A DNA stretch of 64,000 bases, taken from NCBI GenBank assembly GCA_016932315.1, contig JAFGDD010000004.1, positions 125,466 to 189,465 of the forward strand. The letters are read 5' to 3'. The notes under the pieces were generated by a model. That model was not told the origin of the DNA and searched no databases. It saw nothing but the letters and a program-made list of their open reading frames with translations. Made by a program: the position numbers and the translations under genes. This DNA comes from Candidatus Woesearchaeota archaeon. GTDB lineage: Archaea > Nanobdellota > Nanobdellia > Woesearchaeales > SM23-78. Positions 12,820 through 26,213 of the stretch are shown piece by piece. Numbering within the stretch: the first letter of the stretch is position 1; every line of letters starts with the position of its first letter.

Positions 12820-14007
12820 ATGCGTAGATTGAAATCTAAACTTGCACAATCAGCCACCCAAGCAGGAGTAGTCATCATCTTGATTGCTGTGCTTATAATA
12901 TTCTACCTATTGTTCATGGCTCCTGAAGACAGAGCCAAGCTCTTAGGAGAGGACATAAGCAATGGGAATGGAGGCGTGCCTTCGGGAGTCAAGAGCACAT
13001 TGTTCTCTCAGGTACCCGGAAGGATTTATCCATTAACCTCCAACCTCATAGAGCACACCATGCCTTCATTCATGGTTTTCACTGTGACTAATGCTGGTGA
13101 GCTTAAAAGAGTTGATTCATTATATATCAAGAACTCTGCTTTCAGCGACAGTGCAGGAGAAGTCATCTTCTTCTATGACGCTAAGACCACTAATGACGTA
13201 AAGCTATCATTTAATATAAAAAAGCACTCAGGGAGGCTTATCATCAAGCTTAACAATAACCAATTGTTTGATGGCGAAATAACAGAAACAAGCCCGCCAC
13301 CCATAAGCCTGCCCTCAGAATACCTACAATCCAGGAATGTTCTCACTTTCACAGCATCAGAGGTTGGCGCAGCATTCTGGCGCGTTAACGAGTATGAGCT
13401 TGAAAATGTTTTGGTCTCTGCCAAGATTACAGACTATTCCGGGGCTTTCGCAGAGCAGCACTTTTCAATAACGCCTAATGAATATGATTATTTTGATAAG
13501 GCAGTGTTTGACTTCCTGCCTGACTGCCCACCACGAGACGAAGGGCTGGTACAAATCCTCATTAATAATAGGGCAATATACACCAGCTATCCTGATTGCG
13601 GCGTTAAGAGCAGGATCGAGATAAGCAAGGAGCTTCTAAAACCAGGGGACAATACCCTTGTAGCCACAACCAACAGCGGAGCATTCCTGATTGACATGCC
13701 AAAAATAATAATAATCCAGAAGGAAATGCCTCAACCAATATTCTACTTCAATGTGCCAAATACGCTCTATGATGCATTGTATTACGGGCAAAGAGGCTTG
13801 GTATTGACTTTAAGGTTTGCAGATGCAGGCAGCGTAAAGAGAGGCACTCTTGAGGTAAATGATTTCAAGACATTTTTTGAAATCCAAGACATAGCTTACC
13901 AGACTCCAATTGATCCTGAGTTCATAGTCGCAGGCCCGAACTCAGTAAAGATAACCCCTCAATCAGACCCAATAGATATGACTGAATTAAGGATGGACGT
14001 TATTTGA
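12820..14007 (+). CDS. Hypothetical membrane-anchored extracellular protein (N-terminal signal anchor); first gene of a plus-strand surface-protein cluster
   Basis: N-terminal TM (AGVVIILIAVLIIFYLLFM) then a ~360-aa soluble domain with no recognisable catalytic motif. TATA-like tttatatat lies ~30 nt upstream. Confidence 0.5.
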   Translation: MRRLKSKLAQSATQAGVVIILIAVLIIFYLLFMAPEDRAKLLGEDISNGNGGVPSGVKSTLFSQVPGRIYPLTSNLIEHTMPSFMVFTVTNAGELKRVDSLYIKNSAFSDSAGEVIFFYDAKTTNDVKLSFNIKKHSGRLIIKLNNNQLFDGEITETSPPPISLPSEYLQSRNVLTFTASEVGAAFWRVNEYELENVLVSAKITDYSGAFAEQHFSITPNEYDYFDKAVFDFLPDCPPRDEGLVQILINNRAIYTSYPDCGVKSRIEISKELLKPGDNTLVATTNSGAFLIDMPKIIIIQKEMPQPIFYFNVPNTLYDALYYGQRGLVLTLRFADAGSVKRGTLEVNDFKTFFEIQDIAYQTPIDPEFIVAGPNSVKITPQSDPIDMTELRMDVI

Positions 14008-14178: not shown

Positions 14179-15729
14179 GTGATGCTCATGGCTTCTTCAG
14201 GCGGAGGATTAATGACAGGATTGGCTACTAAGACTAAAGATGTTATGACCAAGCACGTGCACGGAGATGCCCCTCATAACCTTCGGTTCCTTTTCATGCT
14301 GGCAATTCTCATCCAGCTAGTCGACGTCTTCTTTTTGAGGTTTGACAGGACTGTTTTTAGGATGACAGCCATAGGGATGTATTTTGTGCTTGTTGTGCTG
14401 GCTGCTTTTTTCTTCAGAAAAGAAGGGTACTTTGTTAATGTGAAACAAATACTGATATTCGCTCTTATATCTACTTTTTATATTCTTGTCCCTTTTTTCC
14501 TTTACCGAATTCCGACAGTACAGCTTTTCGGTGCGACAACACTCGCTGGTTGGGTTAATTTCCTCCTCGCCATACTCCCTCTCTGGCCTATTTATATCGG
14601 TATAAAGGCAGATATTCCCTTTGTTCACAAATACGTAAACTTTTGGATACTTTTCTTGTTATTCCTCTTTATTTTTGGAGTTGGAATGAATTTCCGAGCA
14701 GGAATGTTATCCTCGATTGGCGGTAGGCCTCAGCTGCTCCAGGCCGGTGAAGTCATGACTTATATTTATGAGAAAACAATTGATGTAGCCAAGAATTTCT
14801 GGAAAGCAGTTAACCCTGCCGTGATCGTACCTAAATTTATGAATGCCACAGGCATTGCTTATTATACTGGCATGGTGGATAATAATGAGAAAGCGCCAGT
14901 AGGTCTTTACCTTGACAATGTTCGTACCATTGAGAAATATTTTTATGAAGGCTCACCAGTAGTGGTGTGGGCTGATGTGAGAGGCAAAAGCTTTAACGAA
15001 GAAATAATCATGACGCCAGGATGTTATATTGAGAACGGCGGCAGCGGAACACCAGATCCCAGGAGATTCTCTATTTTTGGGGAAGAGCAGGACACTCTTT
15101 CTTGCACTTTTGAAGGATTAACCAAAGGTTCTTATCTGGCTAAGATGCAAGCAGCATTTAATTTTGAGACATGGGCTTATGTTGATTACACATTTGTTGA
15201 CATTGAAACTAGGCGCGCGTATGAGATGCAGGGAAAGAACATTAACATGGAGCTTAATATTGACAAGCTGCCAAGAGCGATTTTTTCAAATGGCCCAATC
15301 ATGCTAGGAATGGCGTCAATGATTGACCAGCCAATTGGCATCGATATAAAATACAATACTAGAGAGCCAATCCTTGGTGTGACTGTTGATAACTTGTGGA
15401 GCGAAGGAGAAGCTTTCCCTACACAATATGTTATTCTTGTGCCTGATGATTTTGACCTTGTGAAATGCGATCGAGGCACTCCAACCATAGAGCACGGCAA
15501 GATTCCTGGCTATGAAAGAGAAGTGCCTGGCTATGATGCTTACATATTCAGCAAGGAGACTCTTGACCCAAGGCAAGGCTTCCAGTCATTGACTTGCAGG
15601 TTGCACATCAAGGATGACAAGCTCAGCACATTCCTGACAGGCTCACAGAAAATAACTAAGACATTCGTTGCATTAGCCAAGTATGATTATGTTTTGAAAA
15701 AAAATGTGAGGTTTACAGTTAAAGAGTAA
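14179..15729 (+). CDS. Hypothetical polytopic membrane protein (about 6 N-terminal TM helices) with a large C-terminal extracellular domain
   Basis: Hydrophobic segments in the first ~200 aa, then a ~320-aa soluble domain containing Cys residues. It sits within the surface-protein cluster. Confidence 0.5.
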   Translation: MMLMASSGGGLMTGLATKTKDVMTKHVHGDAPHNLRFLFMLAILIQLVDVFFLRFDRTVFRMTAIGMYFVLVVLAAFFFRKEGYFVNVKQILIFALISTFYILVPFFLYRIPTVQLFGATTLAGWVNFLLAILPLWPIYIGIKADIPFVHKYVNFWILFLLFLFIFGVGMNFRAGMLSSIGGRPQLLQAGEVMTYIYEKTIDVAKNFWKAVNPAVIVPKFMNATGIAYYTGMVDNNEKAPVGLYLDNVRTIEKYFYEGSPVVVWADVRGKSFNEEIIMTPGCYIENGGSGTPDPRRFSIFGEEQDTLSCTFEGLTKGSYLAKMQAAFNFETWAYVDYTFVDIETRRAYEMQGKNINMELNIDKLPRAIFSNGPIMLGMASMIDQPIGIDIKYNTREPILGVTVDNLWSEGEAFPTQYVILVPDDFDLVKCDRGTPTIEHGKIPGYEREVPGYDAYIFSKETLDPRQGFQSLTCRLHIKDDKLSTFLTGSQKITKTFVALAKYDYVLKKNVRFTVKE

Positions 15730-15746
15730 GAGAGTAAGCAAAAGAA

Positions 15747-17318
15747 ATGATAAGAGTAAAAAAGCGATCAAAAATGAGTCATTTTAGAATAAAAATTAAT
15801 GAGAACAAGAGCAGGCTTAAAAAATTCTCTCAGTTCATAACACTACTCGCGCTTTCTTCGTTAATATTTTCTTTGATTTTCTTATTATCAGCCTGCGGGG
15901 GATACAATCCCCAGCCAAAAGAAGTAAACTACTTCCAAGGCATTAAAGGGTTAGAGATGAATTTCTGGGATAATTCGCCGCCAGAAGAAATATATGAGGA
16001 ATCAACTTTCACAACCAGCCTGCTTATTGAGAACAGAGGAGCTTTTGACGTGCTAGAAGATAGGCATGGTGTTCTTTCAATAGGTTTTGACCCGTTTTAT
16101 ATTGACTCATCAGGGATACAAGGCTCTGATAGGATTGTTGTAAGCAGCAACAGCTTAATTGTTAAAGGCATTCAATTGCCTGGCAAATCTCAGTATTACC
16201 CTACAGGCATGCAAACCTTCCTCAGCATTCCTGGCTTCAAGATAAGGAAGATAATAGGTCAGAGGGAAAAGCCTACTACTCAATTATCTGCTTCATTATG
16301 TTATCCTTACACAACCACGTTTTCAGGTCTAGTGTGTGTTGACTTATCTACTGCAGGCGAAAACCTTAGGAAGCAAATTTGTTACCAGCAAGACTTATCA
16401 CTGTCTGATCAAGGCGCCCCAGTAGCTGTCTCCAGTATAGAGGTTGAGAACCAGCCAGTAGGTCAGAGCGTGGTAAGACCCGTATATGTCATTCACATCA
16501 AGAACAAAGGCTCAGGAACAGTACTAAGCCCCACTTATAATCCTGCAGAGCTAGAAAGGGTGTGTTCGTTCCAGGACCTTAACAGGCAGGATTTTAACAC
16601 TATACAAATTGAAGCTTATCTTTCAGATTCCAAGCAACTCATATGCAACCCAAATCCTGTGAGGCTTGTTGAAGGCGAAGGCTTTGCAAGGTGCCAAGTT
16701 GGTGAGGAAGATTTGGTATTGGGCCATCAAAACTATGAGGCACCACTATCAATAAAGCTTGACTATGTCTATATTACTTCTTTATCAAAAGAGTTGGGTA
16801 TCAAGCGAATAAATAGTTACGGGGGATCATCTGAGGCACCGCCAAAGTGCTTGCCTTATGAAGTAGAAGAAGGAGGCAGGTGCATTGTGAAGTGCGATTA
16901 TTGCTCTCAGAACAAGGGAGCAGGGGATTGCCAGCCTGCAAGTTCTACTACTCACATTAATTTTGAAGAAGGAGGATTTGCATGCCAATGCTCATCATGC
17001 ACAGACAGAACCGCGGGCAGTTGCGTTGCTTATTCCAATTATTGTCCAGGAGCAATTTATTGCTGCCAGCCAAAGTGCTCTGGTTCAGAAATCCTAGTTA
17101 ATGGCAAATGCTATTCAAAATGCTCGAAATGCTCAAGCTCAAGCTCTGCTTTATCAAAGGATTGTGCTTGCGGCTCCGGATCAAGCCCATCAGATTATGT
17201 TGTCGCGCTCAAAGGCAAGTTTTGCTGCCCAGACAAAAAAGAAGTGCGAGACACTGCTGTTGATTGCGTGAGTGTTTGTAGTGAGCAAACAGCTCCAAGT
17301 CAAAACCAGGAAGAATAA
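15747..17318 (+). CDS. Secreted lipoprotein paralog 1, with two V/I-x-N-x-G (CARDB-like) beta-sandwich motifs and a Cys-rich C-terminal region
   Basis: Signal peptide plus lipobox-like LLSAC. Motifs IENRGAFDV and IHIKNKGSGTV. The C-terminal ~150 aa has more than 25 Cys. QGAPVAVSSIEVEN is shared with the next gene. Confidence 0.55.
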   Translation: MIRVKKRSKMSHFRIKINENKSRLKKFSQFITLLALSSLIFSLIFLLSACGGYNPQPKEVNYFQGIKGLEMNFWDNSPPEEIYEESTFTTSLLIENRGAFDVLEDRHGVLSIGFDPFYIDSSGIQGSDRIVVSSNSLIVKGIQLPGKSQYYPTGMQTFLSIPGFKIRKIIGQREKPTTQLSASLCYPYTTTFSGLVCVDLSTAGENLRKQICYQQDLSLSDQGAPVAVSSIEVENQPVGQSVVRPVYVIHIKNKGSGTVLSPTYNPAELERVCSFQDLNRQDFNTIQIEAYLSDSKQLICNPNPVRLVEGEGFARCQVGEEDLVLGHQNYEAPLSIKLDYVYITSLSKELGIKRINSYGGSSEAPPKCLPYEVEEGGRCIVKCDYCSQNKGAGDCQPASSTTHINFEEGGFACQCSSCTDRTAGSCVAYSNYCPGAIYCCQPKCSGSEILVNGKCYSKCSKCSSSSSALSKDCACGSGSSPSDYVVALKGKFCCPDKKEVRDTAVDCVSVCSEQTAPSQNQEE

Positions 17319-17392
17319 TAATAAGGAAGATAATAAAACGATAATGAGGAAGGTCAGGAAAAGCTTTATATACTTTAAATAGCAAAGGTGGT

Positions 17393-18721
17393 TTGAAGAT
17401 GAAATTATTCGGTAAAAAAAGAGGGTTGGTGTTAGCAGCAATATTCCTGTTGATAATTAATCTATTCTTATTAACAAGCTGCACAAAATTTCCTGGGAGA
17501 ACTCCCACTAATAACCTCGGTAATTTTGAGGATAACAAGTACTACCAAGGATTTGATGGAATGCTGATGCGGTTCAGCGAGAACATGCCGCCTTATAGAA
17601 TGTATTATTACGGCGACCAGTATGATAATTCTTTTGATGTTAATGTTGAAGTGGCTAATGTTGGCTCTGCATGGTCAAGAGGGGGAATATTTCTTTCAGG
17701 CTACGACCCAACCATGATAGAGTTCCTAGGAATTAATCCTGCCAGGAGCTCAGGCCAGTCATGCATGATTGACATAGGCAATATTGGCTTTGGAGAGTTT
17801 GGCGGGACTATGCGCTGCGAAAACTTTTTTATTGGTGCAGGAGACCAAGGAACCTTTGAGATAGGCTTCCAGAACCTTTTCGGCTCTGGCGGAAGCTACT
17901 CAGATAGACTGGACCTGAACAGATTATTCGGTGGCATTGACTTATGGTACCAGCACTCTGCTGGCGGCCAAGACAGAATGAGCATTGGCTTTAATAATCC
18001 TGGCATTGATATTGAATATGCTAATCACGGCAGGCTTTTGATTGCGCTTTTTGAAGGCCTTGACTTCTCAAGAAACTTTGGCGTTGAATATCTGCTAGAA
18101 GGAGATAATCAGGATTATCCTGGCGGAGGATTGGCTTATATTAATTTTGATGGCAACATTGTAAGGTGGCCGCCAGGGCTTGACCAGACTTATCAAAGCT
18201 TCCTTATAACAAATTGCTTCTTGTACGCTACTTATGCAGCACCTGTTGTTTGTATTGACCCGACTCCTTTCTCTCAGAATCAAAAGGTTTGCGTTCCAAG
18301 ACAATTTACAGGCACCAAAGGCCAAGGAGCTCCTGTTGCTGTAACTTATGTTGAGCAGGAAAATACGCCCAGGCAGGCAATATTCACAATTCATGTGAAA
18401 AATGTGGGTGGCGGCCAGGTGTATGATCCTGGCAGGCTCGAGATGTGCAGCCCTTATTTCCCAGGCAGGGTCACTAGCGAGGACCTAAATATTGTTTACA
18501 TAGGGGATATTAGAGTCTCTGGTGACTTGCAGAGATTGCATTGCATGCCTAATGATTTTGTCAGGCTGGATCCTAAGACAGGAGAGGGCATTATTGTGTG
18601 CTCTTATGATATCCCTTTCTCAGGATTAAAATCAGCATATGAATCTCCTTTGGTTGTGGAATTGTGGTATGGTTATTCCAAGACAATGGAGAAAAAGGTT
18701 TATATTAAGAGAGCAATATAA
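17393..18721 (+). CDS. Secreted lipoprotein paralog 2, with two V/I-x-N-x-G motifs and a Gly-rich central region
   Basis: Signal peptide plus lipobox LLTSC. Motifs VEVANVGSAWS and IHVKNVGGGQV. QGAPVAVTYVEQEN parallels paralog 1. RBS aggtgg. Confidence 0.55.
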   Translation: MKMKLFGKKRGLVLAAIFLLIINLFLLTSCTKFPGRTPTNNLGNFEDNKYYQGFDGMLMRFSENMPPYRMYYYGDQYDNSFDVNVEVANVGSAWSRGGIFLSGYDPTMIEFLGINPARSSGQSCMIDIGNIGFGEFGGTMRCENFFIGAGDQGTFEIGFQNLFGSGGSYSDRLDLNRLFGGIDLWYQHSAGGQDRMSIGFNNPGIDIEYANHGRLLIALFEGLDFSRNFGVEYLLEGDNQDYPGGGLAYINFDGNIVRWPPGLDQTYQSFLITNCFLYATYAAPVVCIDPTPFSQNQKVCVPRQFTGTKGQGAPVAVTYVEQENTPRQAIFTIHVKNVGGGQVYDPGRLEMCSPYFPGRVTSEDLNIVYIGDIRVSGDLQRLHCMPNDFVRLDPKTGEGIIVCSYDIPFSGLKSAYESPLVVELWYGYSKTMEKKVYIKRAI

Positions 18722-18829
18722 AAGTCAATATAAATCAAAAAGTATAAATTAAAAAAATAAAAGGATTATAAATAAAAATAATTAAATGAAATTAAATGAA
18801 ATTAAATTAATTGTTTAGCAGGAGGTTGA

Positions 18830-19849
18830 GTGAAAATGAAAAAAACTAATAGATTCAATGGATTGATTGTGGTATTGATTGCAATAACAGCCCTTTTATT
18901 TTTGACTAGCTGCTCGGATGAAAATGGGTCTGCAAATAACTTAGTTCAGACGTATATCGGCGGGACTGTCGGATTGAATGCTTATCTTATTGAGGGTATG
19001 CCTCCGCCTATGATTCATGACTCGGGCAGCTTTCCATTTGGCGTAGGAGTTGCAATTGAGAACCAAGGAGAGGCTGATGTTGGCCCTGGCACTCCCAACC
19101 CATTTGTCATGGTGAGGCTGGAAGGAATTAATCCAGAACAATTTGGAGTGACTGATAATGATGTAAAGAAAGTATTGGCAAGCCCTGTGCGTGGGGCCAA
19201 GAGGAATTTTGATGGTACAATCTTCCCAGGAGAGATTACTTCTGTAACCTTTGAACCTCTAAATTATGCACCAGATATTCACGGCAACACTCAGTTTGTA
19301 ATACGAGCTGATGTTTGTTATGACTACACAACCCTGGCAACAGCGACCATTTGCCTAAAGGATGATGTGCTTGAGAATATTGAGGACACAAGCATTTGCA
19401 GCTTGACTGGAGAGAAGAATCCGCAGAACAGTGGCGGTCCAATTCACATTAGCAGCGTTGTCGAGAACCCCATGGCAGAGAATAAGATACAGGTTAACTT
19501 TGTGATTGAGCACGTTGGTATTGGAGAATTCTTTGGCAGGCCTGTTGGTAGTGACGACATGGCAGAAACATGTGATTTCAGCGTCAGGAATTTCAACAAA
19601 TACTATGTTGATGTTGAGGTTGAGCCTCTCCAGGATTCTGGTCTTACTATCAGCTGCTCAAGACTTGGCGGCACAAACCAGGGCAGGATTAAGCTTTATC
19701 AGGGAGCTCCTACAACTGTGAGCTGCACTGTTGAGAGAACCAGGCCAAGTGCCGGCAGAATATTCCAAGACTTGCTTAACATAAAGCTCAAGTACAGGTA
19801 TGGCCAATTCATTGAGACGCCAATACTCATACAGGACGTCACCAACTAA
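18830..19849 (+). CDS. Secreted lipoprotein paralog 3 (likely true start ATG at 18836)
   Basis: Signal peptide plus lipobox FLTSC. Motifs VAIENQGEADVGPGTPNPFVMVRLEGI and NFVIEHVGIGEFF. C-terminal RIFQDLLNIKLKYRYGQFIETPILIQDV is shared with paralog 4. RBS ggaggt. Confidence 0.6.
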   Translation: MKMKKTNRFNGLIVVLIAITALLFLTSCSDENGSANNLVQTYIGGTVGLNAYLIEGMPPPMIHDSGSFPFGVGVAIENQGEADVGPGTPNPFVMVRLEGINPEQFGVTDNDVKKVLASPVRGAKRNFDGTIFPGEITSVTFEPLNYAPDIHGNTQFVIRADVCYDYTTLATATICLKDDVLENIEDTSICSLTGEKNPQNSGGPIHISSVVENPMAENKIQVNFVIEHVGIGEFFGRPVGSDDMAETCDFSVRNFNKYYVDVEVEPLQDSGLTISCSRLGGTNQGRIKLYQGAPTTVSCTVERTRPSAGRIFQDLLNIKLKYRYGQFIETPILIQDVTN

Positions 19850-19951
19850 GAAGCCAGACGCAGGAGCAATAAATTTAACCTTTTTTTTATTTTTTATTTT
19901 TTTAATTTGTTATCTGATAATTAAGAGCGGGGTTTTGCGGAGGAGTTTGTT

Positions 19952-20983
19952 ATGTTCAAAAAATATTTTTTCTCAATAACTCCTGCCTTGTTCATAGTTT
20001 TTTTTATACTGACACTGGTTATCATGACGGGTTGCACTACAAAAAATCAAGTTTATCAAGAGGAAGAGATTAGTGGCTTTATGGGTGGCCTTGTTGGATT
20101 GAAAATTGCATTGATGGATGGAGCGCCCCCGAGTGTGATTCTTGATGAAGGTGCTTCTCCGTTTTCTTTTATCGTCACGCTTGAGAATGCAGGAGAGGCT
20201 CCTGTTGGCCCAAATACAGCTAATCCTTTAGTAGTTGTCAGGTTAGTTGGCATTTTGCACAGAAATTTTGGATTGAGCCAGGATGAGGCTGTTAAAACTG
20301 TGGCTGATGACTTAGATCCTACTAAAAGGAATTTTGACGGCACTCCTTTGCCTGGCGAAATCACTTATGTTTCTTTTGACAACCTAGCTTACACTGCCAG
20401 TGTTCCTGATAGCTTGGCTCTTACCATGCGCGCAGAAGTGTGTTATGATTATGAATCCTTGGCAACCACCAAATTATGTATGAAGAGGGATGTGCTTGAG
20501 ACTTGGGAGGATGCGAGCATCTGCACCTTGAAAGGGCCTAAGCCAGTAGGCAATGCCGGTTCTCCTTTGCACATAACAAGGGTTGAGGAGGCTCCTATTA
20601 ATAATAAGACTGTTCAGATTAATTTTGTTATCGAGCACCTTGGCAACGGAGTTTTCTTTTACAGGAATGAATATTCGAGCCTGTATGATGTTTGTGTTTT
20701 TGATGAAACCAATCCCCATATTTACAAGCTAGAGGTTTTTGTTGAGCCAATCCAGAAAGATGCTTATGATGTGAAATGCATGAGGCTGGATAATAAGCTG
20801 GATGGCGGCGGTGTTTCTGGCAAGGTTGCAATGTTTGAGGGCGCTCCTCTTACTATCAGTTGTTTCTTGACTAGGACCAAGGATGTGGGCAGCAGAATTT
20901 ATCAGGATTTGCTGAATATTAGGCTTAAGTACAGGTATGGTGAGTTTGTTGAGGTTCCGATACTGATACAGAGCCATCCTTGA
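19952..20983 (+). CDS. Secreted lipoprotein paralog 4 (close paralog of 18830-19849)
   Basis: Lipobox IMTGC. VTLENAGEAPVGPNTANPLVVVRLVGI and C-terminal RIYQDLLNIRLKYRYGEFVEVPILIQS are colinear with paralog 3. RBS ggagg. Confidence 0.6.
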   Translation: MFKKYFFSITPALFIVFFILTLVIMTGCTTKNQVYQEEEISGFMGGLVGLKIALMDGAPPSVILDEGASPFSFIVTLENAGEAPVGPNTANPLVVVRLVGILHRNFGLSQDEAVKTVADDLDPTKRNFDGTPLPGEITYVSFDNLAYTASVPDSLALTMRAEVCYDYESLATTKLCMKRDVLETWEDASICTLKGPKPVGNAGSPLHITRVEEAPINNKTVQINFVIEHLGNGVFFYRNEYSSLYDVCVFDETNPHIYKLEVFVEPIQKDAYDVKCMRLDNKLDGGGVSGKVAMFEGAPLTISCFLTRTKDVGSRIYQDLLNIRLKYRYGEFVEVPILIQSHP

Positions 20984-21127: not shown

Positions 21128-21226
21128 GAATGTTCTTACTCTGTCGTAGTTATTAATCGAAACCTTTATAAATGAATTTGGCTTTCTTTTTCTCTTCATT
21201 AAGATTAATTTTATGGAGGAGCAAAA

Positions 21227-21646
21227 ATGAAAAACAAAGCACTATTGCTCGGATTAGTGGTTCTAACAGTATTGATGAGCGCAGGAATAGCAGCTGCATG
21301 GTCTTATGGAGGCTATGGATATGGTTATGGCTATGAAGATTACCCTGTGAACCCATCAATAAGCGGCAGATACTACCCATACGCCCAGACACCTGCGCGA
21401 GTAGGCGGATACTATGGCCAGAACAGCGCCTTTTTAATAGGCTTAAAACCAGGCGTGTACACAGGACCAATATGGAATGGCTATACCAGACAGAATCTTG
21501 CAAGCGCCTATTATCCCAGAGTTGGAGGATTCTTTGGCTGGAGACCGTACGCTTCTTACTACAGCCTAAGGCCAGGCATGTTCACCTTCAACGGCGTTGG
21601 AACCAACTATGCCAGCACACCATACGTTTATGGCGGCATATTGTAA
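21227..21646 (+). CDS. Small secreted Tyr/Gly-rich low-complexity protein
   Basis: Signal peptide (LLLGLVVLTVLMSAGIAAA) followed by YGGYGYGYGYEDYP and repeated Y-P/Y-G/R-P-Y motifs. ggagg RBS. Confidence 0.55.
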   Translation: MKNKALLLGLVVLTVLMSAGIAAAWSYGGYGYGYGYEDYPVNPSISGRYYPYAQTPARVGGYYGQNSAFLIGLKPGVYTGPIWNGYTRQNLASAYYPRVGGFFGWRPYASYYSLRPGMFTFNGVGTNYASTPYVYGGIL

Positions 21647-21683
21647 ATTATTTTTTTATTAAAAAATTTAAGAGATAGATAAA

Positions 21684-22070
21684 ATGAACCCTAAAGCCAA
21701 GACTTTTGTATTGCTTTTATCAGCAATATTATTTCTCGGATTATTCACTCAATTCGCCTCTGCTTTCAGCAATTATAACTACCCTTATTACCCGCGTTAT
21801 AATTATGCTTATAACACACACAATAATTACTATAATCATTATACCCACTACTCAAATTATAATTACCCTTATGGTTGGGCTCTTGCACCCATGCCCAGCT
21901 ACAATTGCAACGCAATCTATGGCTGCAGAACAACCTATAACAGCTACATCCACCTCGGCAATGCTCTTGATTACACTTATTACACTCACCCCGAGCTCCT
22001 AGCGCCAAGATACATGAGCAACCATATGAGATATGCTAGAGGATTATGGCCTGAAAGGTTTTGGTATTAA
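21684..22070 (+). CDS. Small secreted Tyr/Asn-rich low-complexity protein
   Basis: Signal peptide (FVLLLSAILFLGLFTQFASA), then NYNYPYYPRYNYAYNTHNNYYNHYTHYSNYNYPY. The codon-level repetition is visible in the DNA. Confidence 0.55.
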   Translation: MNPKAKTFVLLLSAILFLGLFTQFASAFSNYNYPYYPRYNYAYNTHNNYYNHYTHYSNYNYPYGWALAPMPSYNCNAIYGCRTTYNSYIHLGNALDYTYYTHPELLAPRYMSNHMRYARGLWPERFWY

Positions 22071-22085
22071 ATAGAAAATTTCTTA

Positions 22086-23054
22086 TTATCTGCTATTAAT
22101 CAGAACAAACTTTGCTAAAAGAGATTCTAATTGTATGAACTCATCGCTTCCTTCTACCATTCGGAATTCTGCTTCTCCGCATTCCTTTATCATCTCTAGC
22201 TTTTTCCTGCTGTCAACGTCTTTTAATTTCCAGATTTCCTGCTGGACTTGTTTTATCACGTCAATTCCTGCAAGCCCATGGTTGAGCATGGTATCGAGTA
22301 ATTTGTTTTTTGCAGCACTAAAATCTCCTTTGACGCACAATGCAAGCACTTCATTGATTTCTTCTGGCTCTGCAGCGCTTGCCACGCTGTAGATAACATC
22401 CTCTGTAATCTTTTCCTTGATAGCAGCACTGCTCTGCATTATATTCTCTAGGCGCCTGCAATCACCCTGGCTTAATTCATATAATGCTTCCTTTGTTTTT
22501 GAATCAATAGTAAGATCTTCTGCCTTTGCTATCTTGTCAATGATCTTGTAAATATCTTCTTTTGGCAATGGCTTGAACCTGAAAACAGTGCACCTTGATT
22601 GTATAGGGTCAATTATTTTTGAAGAATAATTGCAGCTCAATATGAATCTGCACGTCTGCGTATAATTCTCCATGGTTCTCCTTAATGCCTGCTGTGCTTC
22701 CCTTGTCAATGCATCGCATTCATCAAGGTAAATAATCTTGAAAGGAACATCGCCAATAGCTCTTGTCCTTGCGAAATCCTTGACTTTAACCCTGACAACA
22801 TCGATTCCTCTCTCATCGCTGGCATTAAGCTCTAAGAAATTCTCTCTCCACTGACTGCCAAAGAGTTTTTTTGCGATAACTAGCGAAAGAGTTGTTTTTC
22901 CAACGCCTGCAGGACCAGCAAATAATAGGTGGGGCATGTTCTTCTTCTTTACAAATGCCTCCACTCGCTTGACAATCTCATCCTGGCCCTTGACCTCATC
23001 GAAATCATGAGGTCGATACTTCTCAGTCCAAATAGCTATGTCTTCTGGTTCCAT
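22086..23054 (-). CDS. rfcS: Replication factor C small subunit (clamp loader)
   Basis: Walker A GPAGVGKTT, DEXX box IYLDECDAL, SRC motif (SRCTVFRF), and the RFC box at the N-terminus (WTEKYRP). 322 aa. Confidence 0.9.
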   Translation of the reverse strand: MEPEDIAIWTEKYRPHDFDEVKGQDEIVKRVEAFVKKKNMPHLLFAGPAGVGKTTLSLVIAKKLFGSQWRENFLELNASDERGIDVVRVKVKDFARTRAIGDVPFKIIYLDECDALTREAQQALRRTMENYTQTCRFILSCNYSSKIIDPIQSRCTVFRFKPLPKEDIYKIIDKIAKAEDLTIDSKTKEALYELSQGDCRRLENIMQSSAAIKEKITEDVIYSVASAAEPEEINEVLALCVKGDFSAAKNKLLDTMLNHGLAGIDVIKQVQQEIWKLKDVDSRKKLEMIKECGEAEFRMVEGSDEFIQLESLLAKFVLINSR

Positions 23055-23858: not shown

Positions 23859-26213
23859 TTATTCATATCCGTCGTGCTCTGTCCTTCTGATTATCTCGTT
23901 CTGCAGGGCTGGTGATAAGTCGCAGAAGTAGTCGCTGTAGCCTGCTACTCTTACGATTAGGTCGCGGTACTTGTCAGGGCTCTGTTGTGCTTCTCTGAGC
24001 GTGTCTGCGCTTACGACGTTGAACTGCACGTGATGGCCGTCCATCTTGAAATAAGAGCGTACAAGGTTCAGTAATCCATTCATTCCTGCTTCATCAGAGA
24101 GTAAGCTCGGTGTGAATTTCTGGTTGAGCAAGGTTCCTCCTGTTCGGACATGGTCCATCTTGCCTGCAGACTTGAATACTGCTGTCGGCCCTTGCCTGTC
24201 TGCTCCTTGCACCGGAGATATTCCTTCTGATAATGGCTCATAAGCTTTTCTGCCGTCAGGCAATGCTCCAGTTACTTTTCCGAAATAAACATGCACAGTG
24301 GTAGGCAATAAGTTAATTCTGTATTTGCCGTTTCTCTGGTTGGGCTTGTTGTCAATTGCAGAATAATATATCCAGAATACACTTTTCATTATATTGTCTG
24401 CATAATCATCATCATTGCCGTATTTTGGCGTCTTGTTCAAAAAAGTTTGTCTTAATTCTTCATTATCACTGAAATCCTTCTTTAGTGCTTTGATTAACTC
24501 ATCCATGCTTATTTTTCTCCTATCAAAAACATTGTACTTTATCGAGGCAAGGGAGTCTGTTATGCTTCCCATCCCAACGCCTTGTATGTAGCTAGTATTG
24601 TACCTCGCTCCTCCTTCATTGTAGTCCTTGCCGTTTTTTATGCAGTCATCAATCAGTATTGATAAAAACGGTGCAGGCATTTCTTTTGCATAAATATTCT
24701 CTATGACATCATTGCCTTTCATCTTTATATTAATGAAATGATTGACTTGCTTTTCATAGGCTTGCAATAATTCATCAAATGATTTGAATTCAGAAGCTTC
24801 TCCTGTCTTCAAGCCAATTTGTTTTTGCGTCCTTGGGTCAAATCCGTTATTAAGCGTTATCTCAAGTATTTTCGGCAGGTTGAAGTAGCCTGTTAAGATA
24901 TAAGCTTCTTTTCCAAATGCTCCTGTTTCTACGCAGCCGCTTGCCCCTCCGTTGCGCGCATCTTCGATGCTCTTTCCAGCTCTCAGCATCTCCTGGATAA
25001 TCGCATCAGTGTTGAATATGCTTGGCTGGCCAAAGCCTGTCTTGACAATCTTCAGCACTCTGCGCAAATAAGCATCAGGGTTCTTCTTGCTGACCTGAGC
25101 CATGGAACTCGGCTGGAGAAGCCTCATCTCCTCGATAACATCGAGTATCTTGAAAGTTAATGGGTTGACTGCGTCAGAGCCATCTTCTTTTAATCCGCCA
25201 ACATTTATCAGGCAGAAATCAGTGTATGTTCCGCTCTCCTCAGCAGTCACTCCGACCTTTGGAGGTGCTGGCTGGTTGTTGAACTTAATCCAGAAAGCCT
25301 GCAATAATTCTATTGCTTTCTCCTCTGTTAATGTTCCGTCTTCCAATCCTTTCTTGTAAAAAGGATAAAGATGCTGGTCTAATCTGCCAGGATTAAATGA
25401 ATCCCAGGTGTTAAGCTCAGTAATAACTCCTAAATGCACGAACCAGTAATACTGCAGTGCTTCATGAAAATTCCTTGGTGCATGAGCAGGCACCCATGAG
25501 CAGGTTTCAACTATCTTCTCAAGCTCTTTCTTCCTTTCAGGATCAGTCTCTTTTGATGCAAGCTTTAATGCTTCATCGCCGTAGCGCCAGGCATAAGCAA
25601 TTATTGCGTCAGCAGCAATGCTCATGGCTTTGAGTTCTTCTTTTTTCTCTTTTGCATAAGGATATTCTGGTGTTATGCTTTCATTAATCTCCTTCTTGAA
25701 ATCAAGCATTCCCTTCTTGTAAATCTTGTCATCAAGAACAGTATGGCCTGGTGCTCTTTGCTCCATGAACTCTGTGAATATTCCCGCCTCATAAGCATCC
25801 TTCCATTCAGGAGTCATCTCGCTGAAGATCTTGTCCCTGAGGGTTTTGCCGTACCAAAAAGGAAGAACAATATTTGCCTGCTTTTTTTCTGTCTCAGGGC
25901 TTACTGCAAAAGGAATCTTTTCCCTTGAGTTAAGTATGGTAAAGTCTCTCAAGCTATGAGCTGTGAGCTCTGGATAAGTAGGAGTTGCTTTAGGCGCAGA
26001 GCCTCTCTCACCTACTATAAGCTCGCCGTCATTGATGCAGACGGTCTTGTTCTTCAATATGTAATCAAAAGCCCTGGCTCTCTTTACAGGAACAGATAGT
26101 TTCTCATCCTTGCTTTGCTCATAGAATTCTGTCAATAAAAGTGCTCTTTCAAGATCAATATGAGGCTTTGCATTCAGGCTTTGCCCCCTTAACTTCTTTA
26201 TGCGCTCATTCAT
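23859..26213 (-). CDS. Glycyl-radical enzyme (PFL2/glycerol-dehydratase/CutC-like family)
   Basis: 784 aa. Catalytic-loop Cys in GASGCVETGAF (the GCVE type found in dehydratase/lyase GREs, not PFL's CC) and the C-terminal glycine-radical motif RVAGYSDYF. Confidence 0.85.
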   Translation of the reverse strand: MNERIKKLRGQSLNAKPHIDLERALLLTEFYEQSKDEKLSVPVKRARAFDYILKNKTVCINDGELIVGERGSAPKATPTYPELTAHSLRDFTILNSREKIPFAVSPETEKKQANIVLPFWYGKTLRDKIFSEMTPEWKDAYEAGIFTEFMEQRAPGHTVLDDKIYKKGMLDFKKEINESITPEYPYAKEKKEELKAMSIAADAIIAYAWRYGDEALKLASKETDPERKKELEKIVETCSWVPAHAPRNFHEALQYYWFVHLGVITELNTWDSFNPGRLDQHLYPFYKKGLEDGTLTEEKAIELLQAFWIKFNNQPAPPKVGVTAEESGTYTDFCLINVGGLKEDGSDAVNPLTFKILDVIEEMRLLQPSSMAQVSKKNPDAYLRRVLKIVKTGFGQPSIFNTDAIIQEMLRAGKSIEDARNGGASGCVETGAFGKEAYILTGYFNLPKILEITLNNGFDPRTQKQIGLKTGEASEFKSFDELLQAYEKQVNHFINIKMKGNDVIENIYAKEMPAPFLSILIDDCIKNGKDYNEGGARYNTSYIQGVGMGSITDSLASIKYNVFDRRKISMDELIKALKKDFSDNEELRQTFLNKTPKYGNDDDYADNIMKSVFWIYYSAIDNKPNQRNGKYRINLLPTTVHVYFGKVTGALPDGRKAYEPLSEGISPVQGADRQGPTAVFKSAGKMDHVRTGGTLLNQKFTPSLLSDEAGMNGLLNLVRSYFKMDGHHVQFNVVSADTLREAQQSPDKYRDLIVRVAGYSDYFCDLSPALQNEIIRRTEHDGYE

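What the first reader, a model, noticed from the sequence alone, without database searches (positions are those of the whole stretch)
21227..22070. Two adjacent tiny secreted proteins of extreme Tyr/Gly and Tyr/Asn composition
- **Gene 21227-21646:** encodes a signal peptide followed by YGGYGYGYGYEDYP and many R-x-Y/P-Y repeats.
- **Gene 21684-22070:** encodes a signal peptide followed by NYNYPYYPRYNYAYNTHNNYYNHYTHYSNYNYPY.
- **Analogy:** Tyr-rich low-complexity secreted proteins are reminiscent of cross-linkable structural or adhesive matrix proteins.
- **Context:** they sit directly after the lipoprotein cluster and element D.
- **Alternative reading frames:** the nucleotide sequence is itself repetitive, so alternative-frame ORFs (for example 21706-22002) also appear, but only these frames have a signal peptide and an RBS.
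Basis: seen in the sequence. Interest (0 to 1): 0.5.

Follow-up and report, generated by a model that had tools for sequence, protein, structure and literature searches.

The report
Conserved tyrosine-rich exported protein pair, Woesearchaeota
Two real, adjacent genes in a tiny symbiotic-type archaeon (Woesearchaeota) encode small exported proteins with about five times the normal tyrosine content; they always close a conserved, completely uncharacterised eight-gene cell-envelope cluster, so they are most likely unknown building blocks of this organism's surface.

Summary
ORF A (21227-21646, 139 aa, 15% Tyr, 17% Gly) and ORF B (21684-22070, 128 aa, 19% Tyr, 12% Asn) are the two most Tyr-rich of 130 ORFs in the window, where the background is 3.6% Tyr. 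Both are genuine genes:
- dN/dS is about 0.16.
- Substitutions concentrate at third codon positions.
- Indels are multiples of 3 nt.

Homologues exist only in Woesearchaeota/Nanoarchaeota (DPANN) MAGs and metagenomes. There is no match in Pfam, NCBIfam, PHROGs or PDB.

In 22 distinct loci, A is followed by B on the same strand. In most loci the pair closes a conserved array: pilin-like protein, polytopic membrane protein, four lipoproteins, A, B, lying between pelota and RFC.

Tyr-richness, acid depletion and basic pI are conserved across both families, and much of the Tyr is conserved position by position.
- A has an internal duplication (RVGGΦΦG…L[KR]PGxΦ, twice).
- B has a variable Tyr/Asn tract plus a conserved 60-aa C-terminal domain with a covarying Cys pair.

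AlphaFold gave no confident fold for either.

The best reading is non-covalent structural or accessory subunits of a lineage-specific envelope assembly. Oxidative Tyr cross-linking is unlikely in this anaerobe. The DNA is not repetitive, and B lacks a clear RBS.

The parts
21159..21173 (+). Archaeal BRE/TATA-like promoter of gene A (GAAACCTTTATAAAT), about 55-68 nt upstream of the ATG
   Evidence: The same motif (GAAAnCTTTATAAAT, or TTTATAAA alone in one locus) lies at a comparable distance upstream of the A orthologue in 6 of 7 loci compared. Assigning it as a promoter is inference from the archaeal TATA consensus.
21215..21219 (+). Shine-Dalgarno GGAGG of gene A, 7 nt before the ATG
   Evidence: GGAGG is present 8-12 nt upstream of the start in 7/7 orthologous loci.
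21227..21646 (+). Gene A (NCBI JW756_01805): 139-aa precursor, roughly 115-aa mature Tyr/Gly-rich basic protein
   Evidence: ORF. 100% match to an NCBI hypothetical protein of Ca. Woesearchaeota. dN/dS 0.17, substitutions by codon position 12/11/36, one 9-nt indel versus L001. Codon-usage log-likelihood is best in this frame. 23 distinct homologues in loci plus database hits.
21227..21298 (+). Signal peptide of A (MKNKALLLGLVVLTVLMSAGIAAA, predicted cleavage AAA|W)
   Evidence: Most of the 15 aligned homologues have [AVST]-x-A (ASA, VSA, AAA, ATA, TSA) around residues 22-30. This is the only segment AlphaFold predicted with confidence, as a helix (pLDDT about 75).
21299..21343 (+). Gly/Tyr tract of A (WSYGGYGYGYGYEDY), variable in length among homologues
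   Evidence: The only tandem DNA repeat, 22 nt, lies inside it.
21398..21463 (+). Repeat 1 of A: RVGGYYGQNSAFLIGLKPGVYT
   Evidence: hhalign of residues 52-94 against 95-139 (33-sequence alignment): probability 95.9%, E 6e-9. R58, G60, G61, G64, L73 and G76 are at least 94% conserved.
21518..21586 (+). Repeat 2 of A: RVGGFFGWRPYASYYSLRPGMFT
   Evidence: Same hhalign result. R98, G100, G101 and G104 are at least 94% conserved.
21651..21666 (+). T7 tract directly after the stop of A (oligo-T archaeal terminator-like), overlapping an A/T-rich TATA-like box about 25 nt upstream of the ATG of B
   Evidence: T-tracts follow the A stop in 5 of 7 loci. There is no SD before B in any locus. The functional assignment is inferred.
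21684..22070 (+). Gene B (NCBI JW756_01810): 128-aa precursor, roughly 101-aa mature Tyr/Asn-rich protein
   Evidence: ORF. 100% match to an NCBI hypothetical protein. dN/dS 0.15, substitutions by codon position 30/22/54, indels of 18 and 3 nt. 31 representatives at E <= 1e-3 among 1.84 billion proteins.
21684..21764 (+). Signal peptide of B (MNPKAKTFVLLLSAILFLGLFTQFASA, predicted cleavage ASA|F)
   Evidence: Several B homologues lack a canonical AxA site and may keep the segment as an N-terminal membrane anchor.
21765..21872 (+). Tyr/Asn tract of B (36 aa: 14 Tyr, 9 Asn, 3 His, 3 Pro, 1 charged residue)
   Evidence: In 44 homologues this region varies from 29 to 66 aa (median 49) and keeps about 24% Tyr and 19% Asn+Gln. 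It also contains a recurrent PSYYxQYNYRYN-like motif.
21888..22067 (+). Conserved C-terminal domain of B (PMPSYNCNAIYGCRTTYNSYIHLGNALDYTYYTHPELLAPRYMSNHMRYARGLWPERFWY), with Cys75 (21906-21908) and Cys81 (21924-21926)
   Evidence: Family consensus ..MPS..CN...GC...Y.SHIY..NALDYTYY.NP.LL.PRYM.NHQRY..GLWPQ.F.Y. Cys count after residue 30 is 0 (17 sequences) or 2 (27 sequences), never 1. The pair is C/C in 25 sequences and Y/Y in 6. The low-confidence AlphaFold hairpin 68-76/80-89 places the two cross-strand.
12820..14007 (+). First gene of the conserved cluster: 395-aa protein with a class III (type IV pilin-like) signal
   Evidence: The N-terminus [KR][GA]|QSA followed by about 20 hydrophobic residues is conserved in 12 orthologues. 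No Pfam, NCBIfam or PDB match.
14179..15729 (+). Second cluster gene: 516-aa polytopic membrane protein with an extracytoplasmic C-terminal domain
   Evidence: Orthologue present in all complete loci. No family match.
15747..20983 (+). Four lipoprotein genes (15747-17318, 17393-18721, 18830-19849, 19952-20983) with lipobox Cys. The last two are paralogues with six further conserved Cys.
   Evidence: Conserved in order in all complete loci. No Pfam, NCBIfam or PDB match.

Best explanation
**What is shown.**
- A and B are genuine, separately transcribed genes for small exported proteins of a Woesearchaeota (DPANN) archaeon.
- Both are basic (pI about 9), acid-poor and exceptionally aromatic.
- They are the last two genes of an eight-gene, one-strand cluster that otherwise encodes only envelope proteins: one pilin-like protein, one polytopic membrane protein and four lipoproteins.
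- They are real coding sequences under purifying selection.
- Their N-terminal signal peptides, paired cysteines and strict A-then-B synteny with the envelope genes are conserved.
- Tyr-richness is conserved as a family trait.

**What is inferred.**
- After Sec export and signal-peptidase cleavage, they act as small structural or accessory subunits of a lineage-specific cell-surface assembly.
- They bind each other, the lipoprotein ectodomains or the surface through many non-covalent tyrosine contacts: pi-pi stacking, Arg-Tyr cation-pi pairs and Asn/Tyr hydrogen bonds.
- A has its own promoter, a strong SD and a terminator, so it is probably the more abundant component. It is built from two RVGGΦΦG…L[KR]PGxΦ repeats.
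- B is modular. A length-variable Tyr/Asn spacer carries a conserved hairpin-plus-helix C-terminal domain that would act as the docking module.
- Covalent oxidative Tyr cross-linking is not expected, because the organism is an anaerobe.
For: **Coding.** dN/dS is 0.15-0.17, third-position changes dominate, and indels are in-frame. Codon usage is best in the annotated frames. Alternative frames are not conserved open.

**Export.**
- Sec-type signal peptides are present across the A family and in the window's B.
- B has 0 or 2 Cys, never 1.
- Extra Cys appear in several A homologues, mostly in even numbers.

**Linkage.**
- 22 distinct loci carry A followed by B on the same strand.
- In most, the pair comes directly after the two paralogous lipoproteins, giving the array pelota(-)|395|~520-650|~500-525|~435|~335|~345|A|B|RFC(-).
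- Adjacency of A and B persists where the lipoprotein is only 43-44% identical and the pair has moved 3-6 kb away (L031, L032).

**Composition as a selected trait.**
- A family: mean Tyr 15.6%, D+E 1.6%, pI 9.3.
- B family: mean Tyr 20.0%, pI 8.9.
- 14/21 Tyr positions in A and 11/24 in B are aromatic in at least 70% of homologues.

**Architecture.** A has an internal duplication. B has a conserved C-terminal domain with CC/YY covariation.

**Expression signals.** A has a conserved BRE/TATA and GGAGG, and T-tracts follow its stop.

**Anaerobic context.** A PFL-like glycyl-radical enzyme lies at 23859-26213 (E 2.7e-233).
Against: - There is no experimental or structural evidence for any function.
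- AlphaFold2 gave mean pLDDT of 41 and 43, so no fold and no fold comparison are available.
- None of the eight cluster proteins matches any Pfam, NCBIfam or PDB family, so 'envelope assembly' rests on targeting signals and synteny alone.
- A and B have their own promoters. Unrelated genes are sometimes inserted between the lipoproteins, A, B and RFC, so co-regulation with the upstream genes is not shown.
- Synteny next to pelota and RFC could partly reflect a generally conserved gene order in this lineage rather than function.
- Neither protein has a membrane anchor or a known wall-binding domain, so retention at the cell surface is assumed, not demonstrated.
- Expression level is unknown.
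Confidence: 0.5

Rival explanations
1. Two-component functional amyloid or cross-beta fibre. A would be the major polymerising subunit and B the nucleator or anchor, analogous to (but not homologous with) curli CsgA/CsgB and their lipoprotein machinery. The [G/S]Y[G/S] tract and the Asn/Tyr tract would act as prion-like or LARKS-type segments.
For: - Two small exported proteins lie next to lipoproteins.
- A has imperfect internal repeats.
- B's tract is 39% Tyr and 25% Asn with a single charged residue.
- AlphaFold finds no globular fold for either protein.
- Archaeal Q/N-rich candidate prion domains that formed amyloid had higher Tyr/Phe content than those that did not (bioRxiv 10.1101/2020.07.20.212902, read).
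Against: - A and B are not detectably homologous to each other (hhalign probability <1% with the larger alignments), unlike CsgA and CsgB.
- There is no Curlin or other amyloid family hit.
- The Tyr/Asn tract is only 36 aa here, below the 60-aa PLAAC core used in the cited study, and contains 3 Pro.
- Both proteins are rich in Pro and Gly at conserved positions.
- Low pLDDT may simply reflect shallow alignments of 15 and 7 sequences.
Confidence: 0.15
2. Host- or substrate-directed adhesins or glycan binders of a symbiotic DPANN cell. The basic, Tyr/Trp-rich proteins would stick to a partner's envelope (sheath, pseudomurein or S-layer glycans) through CH-pi and cation-pi contacts, with the cluster forming an attachment organelle.
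For: - DPANN affiliation.
- Cultivated DPANN are ectosymbionts that need cell contact (abstracts of PMC11329633 and PMC11291902, listed).
- The mature proteins are basic and aromatic-rich.
- The cluster starts with a pilin-like protein.
Against: - The genes evolve under purifying selection (dN/dS about 0.16).
- They sit in a fixed housekeeping neighbourhood and were found as one A-B pair in each locus examined. They are not in a variable island, and they lack the diversifying pattern usual for host-interaction factors.
- No carbohydrate-binding or adhesin domain is detected.
- No host is known for this organism.
Confidence: 0.15
3. One reading: a covalently cross-linked Tyr matrix (dityrosine or DOPA) like plant glycine-rich wall proteins, insect or schistosome eggshell proteins, or mussel foot proteins.
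For: - Composition: 15-19% Tyr, GYGYGY tracts and basic pI.
- One B homologue weakly hits the plant GRP family PF07172 (E 0.0027, 1 of 33).
Against: - Oxidative Tyr chemistry needs O2 or H2O2 plus a tyrosinase, peroxidase or laccase (established biochemistry). This organism carries an O2-labile glycyl-radical PFL.
- No oxidase is found in or beside the cluster in any locus.
- The GRP hit is compositional and below family level.
Confidence: 0.07
4. Spurious ORFs in a non-coding or repeat region, or the true gene lies in another frame or strand.
For: - Skewed composition opens alternative frames: 21706-22002 on the + strand and 21153-21503 on the - strand.
- B's codon-usage score (0.096) is below the range of the reference genes (minimum 0.125).
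Against: - dN/dS is about 0.16, with third-position bias and in-frame indels.
- HMM-detectable protein homologues occur in 22 loci, down to about 40% identity.
- Alternative frames are not conserved open.
- There is no significant tandem repeat and no Rfam match.
Confidence: 0.01

Closest known systems
Curli system of Enterobacteria (CsgA major subunit, CsgB nucleator, lipoprotein CsgG)
   Same: Two small Sec-exported proteins with imperfect internal repeats, rich in Gly/Asn/Tyr, encoded beside lipoprotein genes. A plausible division into an abundant subunit (A) and an anchoring or nucleating partner (B).
   Different: There is no sequence relationship and no Curlin-repeat hit. A and B are not homologous to each other. 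Archaea have no outer membrane to cross. Amyloid formation is untested. Tyr content is far higher, and the Gln/Asn ladder repeats are absent.
Low-complexity aromatic-rich domains of the FUS type ([G/S]Y[G/S] repeats) and yeast or archaeal prion-like Q/N/Y domains
   Same: A has four overlapping [G/S]Y[G/S] triplets (SYGGYGYGYG). B has a 36-aa tract of 39% Tyr and 25% Asn with almost no charge. Tyr plus Arg act as 'stickers'. AlphaFold predicts no structure for these tracts.
   Different: These proteins are extracellular rather than cytoplasmic or nuclear. The tracts are short, 15 and 36 aa, against the core of at least 60 aa used with PLAAC. Most of each protein is made of position-specifically conserved motifs rather than pure low complexity.
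Plant glycine-rich cell-wall proteins (Pfam PF07172 GRP) and other Gly/Tyr-rich structural proteins (insect chorion or cuticle, schistosome eggshell, mussel foot proteins)
   Same: A signal peptide followed by a Gly/Tyr-rich, basic, small secreted protein with a presumed structural or adhesive role.
   Different: They are not members: 0 of 15 A and 1 of 33 B homologues touch PF07172, at E 0.0027. Those proteins are hardened by O2/H2O2-dependent Tyr oxidation, which is implausible in an anaerobe carrying a glycyl-radical PFL. The organism is an archaeon.
Archaeal surface filaments and sheaths built from small secreted subunits (for example Methanothermobacter Mth60 fimbriae, or the Methanothrix/Methanospirillum sheath functional amyloids). 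Named from my own knowledge, not tested here.
   Same: Small Sec-type exported archaeal proteins that self-assemble outside the cell without a type IV pilin signal.
   Different: No sequence similarity was detected to anything in Pfam, NCBIfam or PDB. The composition is much more Tyr-rich. Assembly into any filament or sheath is not shown.

Membership tests
Sec/SPase I secretory proteins | N-terminal positively charged n-region, 10-20 residue hydrophobic h-region, and small residues at -3/-1 of the cleavage site | tested here: met
   A: MKNK / ALLLGLVVLTVLMSAG / IAAA|W. Most of the 15 aligned homologues have [AVST]-x-A around residues 22-30. B in the window: MNPKAK / TFVLLLSAILFLGLF / TQFASA|F. 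This was judged by hydropathy and the -3/-1 rule only. Some B homologues lack a canonical site.
Archaeal or bacterial lipoproteins | Lipobox with an invariant Cys at +1 of the mature protein | tested here: not met
   A has no Cys. B's only Cys residues are C75 and C81, far from the signal peptide. The four upstream neighbours do have lipoboxes.
Type IV pilin-like proteins (class III signal peptide) | Short charged leader ending [KR][GA]|, cleaved before the hydrophobic stretch, which remains in the mature protein | tested here: not met
   In A and B the hydrophobic stretch precedes an AxA site, and no [KR]G|Q motif is present. By contrast, the first cluster gene (12820-14007) does show this motif.
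Archaeosortase/PGF-CTERM or other C-terminal anchor substrates | C-terminal sorting motif plus a transmembrane helix and a basic tail | tested here: not met
   The C-termini are ...TPYVYGGIL and ...LWPERFWY, with no hydrophobic helix. No NCBIfam model hit at E <= 1.
Pfam PF07172 glycine-rich protein family (plant GRPs) | Score above the Pfam gathering threshold | tested here: not met
   0 families for A or B at E <= 0.01. Across homologues, 0/15 (A) and 1/33 (B, E 0.0027) match.
Curli or other known functional amyloid families | Sequence match to the family repeat (for example Curlin_rpt), and experimentally a cross-beta fibre | tested here: not met
   There is no Pfam or NCBIfam hit. Fibre formation itself cannot be tested with these tools.
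Prion-like domains as defined by PLAAC | Q/N-rich HMM core of at least 60 residues | tested here: not met
   PLAAC itself was not run. The window's Tyr/Asn tract is 36 aa (41 aa up to the conserved domain). The family range is 29-66 aa, median 49. The cited study required a core length of at least 60. The composition is prion-like (64% Tyr+Asn).
Oxidatively cross-linked Tyr/DOPA structural proteins | Post-translational Tyr oxidation (dityrosine or DOPA) by a tyrosinase, peroxidase or laccase | not testable with these tools
   There is only indirect evidence against: an O2-sensitive glycyl-radical PFL nearby, and no oxidase in or beside the cluster in any locus inspected. The whole genome was not screened.
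Known RNA families or non-coding repeats (alternative to coding) | Rfam match or a tandem or dispersed DNA repeat | tested here: not met
   There is no Rfam hit at gathering threshold or at E <= 1. TRF finds only 22 nt, score 30.

The most novel reading that the evidence does not exclude
The whole eight-gene array (pilin-like protein, polytopic membrane protein, four lipoproteins, A and B) is a previously undescribed DPANN surface apparatus. In it, A polymerises into an aromatic-rich extracellular fibre or gel, and B nucleates or anchors it through its conserved C-terminal domain. This would be an archaeal, sequence-unrelated counterpart of curli-type secreted-fibre systems. It might serve cell-cell attachment, or even electron or nutrient exchange with a syntrophic host through stacked tyrosines.
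Probability: 0.12. Interest if true: 0.8.

Novelty: new variant of a known kind. Interest (0 to 1): 0.45.

Why it matters
Nothing is known experimentally about the cell envelope of Woesearchaeota, one of the most widespread uncultivated DPANN lineages in anoxic sediments and groundwater. How these tiny cells build their surface and attach to partners is an open question.

This analysis defines two new, narrowly distributed protein families and shows that they are inseparable from a conserved cluster of six other unannotated envelope proteins. That gives a concrete, testable candidate for a lineage-specific surface structure.

The proteins are small (about 100-115 aa when mature) and easy to synthesise. 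Their assembly behaviour could therefore be tested directly, without cultivating the organism: amyloid, coacervate, or binding to the lipoprotein ectodomains.

If they turn out to be ordinary accessory envelope proteins, the result is still useful for annotation, because every member found is currently labelled 'hypothetical protein'.

Tried and rejected
1. **Non-coding or repeat explanation.** TRF and the repeat finder gave only trivial repeats, and Rfam gave nothing. Rejected.
2. **Known protein families.** Pfam (also at E <= 5), NCBIfam, PHROGs and PDB sequence or profile searches gave no meaningful hit for A, B, their homologues and the six neighbours. The weak hits (OppC_N, alpha-glucosidase, ZBTB20, elastase, cadinene synthase) are noise.
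3. **Structure.** AlphaFold2 with 15- and 7-sequence alignments gave mean pLDDT of 41 and 43. No fold search was run, because its results would be meaningless.
4. **A and B as paralogues, like CsgA/CsgB.** A first hhalign gave 66% probability. This was not reproduced with larger alignments, which gave <1%. Rejected.
5. **Viral origin.** There is no relative of A in IMG/VR. The B alignment was too diverse for the pattern scan.
7. **The intergenic 'element D' as a regulatory RNA of gene A.** It has no Rfam hit and only modest folding (z = -2.0). It is absent from all 39 related loci searched, so it is not part of the conserved system.
8. **Literature.** No paper combines Woesearchaeota with tyrosine-rich proteins. 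Nothing relevant was found on such archaeal secreted proteins.
9. **Bacterial promoter and terminator scan.** Not used, because it does not cover archaeal signals.
Full report
**What is at the coordinates.**
- The window comes from a Candidatus Woesearchaeota (DPANN, kingdom Nanobdellati) metagenome-assembled genome. The two ORFs are 100% identical to the NCBI hypothetical proteins JW756_01805 and JW756_01810, on a 290,509-bp contig.
- ORF A (21227-21646, +) encodes 139 aa. ORF B (21684-22070, +) encodes 128 aa.
- A has 15.1% Tyr and 16.5% Gly. B has 18.8% Tyr and 11.7% Asn. Forty-one long ORFs of the same window average 3.6% Tyr, with a maximum of 5.9%.
- The binomial probabilities are 3e-8 and 3e-11. 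The two ORFs rank first and second among 130 Met-start ORFs of at least 60 aa.
- Both start with a Lys-rich n-region, a hydrophobic core of about 15 residues and a small-x-small site (AAA|W and ASA|F).

**Two side remarks that are not confirmed.**
- The DNA is not repetitive. Tandem Repeats Finder finds one 22-nt tract with score 30, and direct repeats are at most 20 nt.
- Only A has a convincing ribosome-binding site.

**Are they genes?** Yes.
- Against the closest orthologous locus (L001), dN/dS by the Nei-Gojobori method is 0.17 for A and 0.15 for B.
- Substitutions by codon position are 12/11/36 for A and 30/22/54 for B. Nucleotide-level indels are 9, 18 and 3 nt.
- The codon-usage log-likelihood is highest in the annotated frames among all six.
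It is not kept open in orthologues, at 104 codons here against a median of 55.
- There is no Rfam match, either at gathering threshold or at E <= 1.

**Families and distribution.**
- Word-indexed searches of 5.8 billion protein clusters found 15 A-type and 7 B-type proteins.
- An exhaustive HMM search of 1.84 billion representatives with the B profile found 31 at E <= 1e-3, of which 24 were at E <= 1e-10. All are 75-172 aa.
- Every named member is a 'hypothetical protein' from Woesearchaeota or 'Nanoarchaeota archaeon' MAGs.
- No member of either family matches Pfam, apart from two isolated compositional hits. Nothing matches NCBIfam, PHROGs or PDB sequences.
- No relative of A is found on viral contigs.

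**Genomic context.**
- Look-ups of homologues, a GTDB genome scan and a metagenome scan seeded with the neighbouring lipoprotein gave 41 loci.
- I scanned six-frame ORFs of all of them with HMMs for A, B, the lipoprotein pair, the four other cluster proteins, pelota and RFC.
- In 22 distinct loci, A is followed by B on the same strand.
- In nearly all of them the layout is pelota(-) | 395-aa | ~520-650-aa | ~500-525-aa | ~435-aa | ~335-aa | ~345-aa | A | B | RFC small subunit(-).
- Unrelated genes are occasionally inserted before A, between A and B, or after B.
- One further contig without DNA shows the same gene sizes around a divergent B.
- In L031 and L032 the lipoprotein is only 43-44% identical and the pelota/RFC frame is absent. 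There, A and B lie 3-6 kb downstream but are still adjacent to each other.
- Only the three most divergent lipoprotein loci (31-41% identity; two of them short contigs) lack HMM-detectable A and B.
- One of these, L034, carries a different 131-aa ORF with a signal peptide and 16% Tyr right beside RFC.

**The six upstream genes are all envelope proteins with no known family.**
- The first has a conserved class III, type IV pilin-like signal: [KR][GA]|QSA followed by about 20 hydrophobic residues.
- The second is polytopic.
- The next four have lipobox cysteines. The last two are paralogues with six further conserved Cys.

**Anatomy of A.**
- It has a signal peptide (aa 1-24) and a length-variable Gly/Tyr tract (WSYGGYGYGYGYEDY).
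- A conserved YPVNPS motif follows, then two copies of a roughly 23-residue unit: RVGGYYGQNSAFLIGLKPGVYT (aa 58-79) and RVGGFFGWRPYASYYSLRPGMFT (aa 98-120).
- Profile-profile comparison of the two halves gives 95.9% probability, E 6e-9.
- The Arg, the Gly-Gly, the following Gly, and the L-[KR]-P-G are 82-100% conserved in 33 sequences.
- The protein ends in a conserved aromatic tail (…PYVYHGPL in most members).
- Some homologues add two or four Cys.

**Anatomy of B.**
- It has a signal peptide (aa 1-27), which in several homologues lacks a canonical cleavage site and may remain as an anchor.
- A Tyr/Asn tract follows. It is 36 aa here, with 14 Tyr and 9 Asn. Across the family it is 29-66 aa, with about 24% Tyr and 19% Asn+Gln, and it carries a recurrent PSYYxQYNYRYN-like motif.
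- The C-terminal domain of about 60 aa is conserved: ..MPS..CN...GC...Y.SHIY..NALDYTYY.NP.LL.PRYM.NHQRY..GLWPQ.F.Y.
- Members have either two Cys (27 sequences) or none (17 sequences), never one. The pair C75/C81 is replaced together, by Tyr/Tyr in six sequences.
- The low-confidence AlphaFold model places these positions opposite each other in a hairpin (68-76/80-89), followed by a helix.
- A and B are not detectably related to each other. The 66% hhalign probability fell below 1% with larger alignments.

**Composition is a conserved trait.**
- Mature A proteins average 15.6% Tyr (range 8.7-22.9), 1.6% Asp+Glu and pI 9.3.
- Mature B proteins average 20.0% Tyr (range 11.3-27.6), 3.5% Asp+Glu and pI 8.9.
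- Fourteen of A's 21 Tyr positions and 11 of B's 24 are aromatic in at least 70% of homologues.
- Tyr-richness is therefore largely position-specific, not just compositional drift.

**Expression signals** (inferred from sequence).
- A has a BRE/TATA-like GAAACCTTTATAAAT at 21159-21173, found in 6 of 7 loci compared.
- It has a GGAGG 7 nt before the ATG, found in 7 of 7 loci.
- A T7 tract directly follows its stop.
- B has no SD. It has an A/T-rich TATA-like box about 25 nt upstream of its ATG, which suggests a leaderless or short-leader transcript.
- A and B are therefore probably separate transcription units, with A well equipped for high expression.

**Structure.**
- AlphaFold2 gave mean pLDDT of 41.3 (A, 15 sequences) and 43.5 (B, 7 sequences). 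Only the signal-peptide helices were confident.
- I did not run fold searches on such models.
- The low confidence may reflect disorder, folding only on assembly, or simply shallow alignments.

**Interpretation.**
- Shown: A and B are real, exported, conserved proteins, strictly linked to an envelope gene cluster. Their Tyr-rich, acid-poor, basic character is under selection.
- Inferred: they are small structural or accessory subunits of a lineage-specific surface assembly. They would be held together by multivalent non-covalent Tyr contacts (pi-pi, Arg-Tyr cation-pi, Asn/Tyr hydrogen bonding). A would be the abundant repeat-built component. B would be a spacer-plus-docking-domain component. 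I give this 0.5.

- The analogy to cross-linkable Tyr matrices is reasonable on composition but unlikely on chemistry.
- Dityrosine and DOPA formation need O2 or H2O2 and an oxidase (established biochemistry).
- This organism encodes an O2-labile glycyl-radical pyruvate formate-lyase 1.8 kb away (E 2.7e-233).
- No oxidase appears in or beside the cluster in any locus.

**Rivals.**
- Curli-like two-component amyloid or cross-beta fibre: 0.15. Tyr/Phe-rich archaeal prion-like domains do form amyloid (bioRxiv 10.1101/2020.07.20.212902). However, B's tract is shorter than the 60-residue PLAAC core used in that study, and it contains Pro.
- Host-directed adhesins of a symbiont: 0.15. This is disfavoured by purifying selection and the fixed housekeeping location.
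- Literal oxidative cross-linking: 0.07.
- Spurious ORFs: 0.01.

**Novelty and score.**
- Both families, and the whole eight-gene cluster, are unannotated and have no described relatives.
- The general kind (a signal peptide plus a Tyr-rich, low-acidity small structural protein) is known from bacteria and eukaryotes. It is not known from DPANN archaea, nor in this motif architecture.
- I rate it a new variant of a known kind, with interest 0.45.
- It is a solid, testable lead into the unknown envelope biology of Woesearchaeota, but no surprising mechanism has been demonstrated.

Noticed in passing
A second, degenerate copy shares an identical 19-21 nt 5' end. Both copies lie immediately 3' of a gene's stop codon, in that gene's orientation. 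There is no Rfam match, and the element is absent from the 39 related loci searched, so it is genome-specific. It could be MITE-like or a terminator-associated repeat.
   Followed up: partly
window 12820-14007 (+): The first gene of the cluster has a conserved class III (type IV pilin-like) signal, [KR][GA]|QSA followed by about 20 hydrophobic residues, on an unusually large 395-aa protein. Twelve orthologues show it. No pilus ATPase or platform gene is in the cluster.
   Followed up: partly
window 14179-20983 (+): The polytopic membrane protein and the four lipoproteins appear, by eye, to share a recurring ectodomain motif (…G..GL……PP..I.D…). Only the last two were aligned: they are paralogues with six further conserved Cys. 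The 523-aa lipoprotein (15747-17318) ends in a Cys-rich region of about 150 aa. None has any Pfam, NCBIfam or PDB match.
   Followed up: partly
L034 11367-11804 (-): The most divergent version of the cluster (lipoprotein 33% identical) has no HMM-detectable A or B. It does have a 131-aa ORF with a signal peptide and 16% Tyr right next to RFC. This could be an analogue or a very diverged relative.
   Followed up: partly
L005/L009 10762-13359 (-): The RFC small subunit of this related Woesearchaeota MAG is 865 aa and carries an intein (PF14890). The window's RFC (22086-23054) is intein-free.
   Followed up: no
window 21620-21646 and 22041-22070 (C-termini of A and B): Both families end in conserved aromatic or hydrophobic tails. 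A ends in …PYVY[HG]G[PI][LM]. B ends in …WPQxFxY, with Tyr as the last residue in most members. This is unexplained. It resembles C-terminal recognition signals in form only.
   Followed up: no
L001 10527-11363; L005 8485-9210; L010 762-1265: Unrelated, non-secreted-looking genes are inserted between the lipoproteins, A and B in some genomes (a 278-aa, a 241-aa and a 167-aa protein). So A and B are not obligatorily co-transcribed with their neighbours.
   Followed up: no
L004, L006, L040 (SRA run SRR13394437): Three clearly different Woesearchaeota populations from one sequencing run each carry their own version of the cluster with A and B. A identity between them is 51-55%.
   Followed up: no
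L041 18523-20405 and JGI 3300071358 contig: In two related loci, DsbD-type membrane proteins and thioredoxin/AhpC-like genes lie about 5-8 kb downstream of the cluster. They may be relevant to forming the disulfides of the Cys-rich envelope proteins.
   Followed up: no
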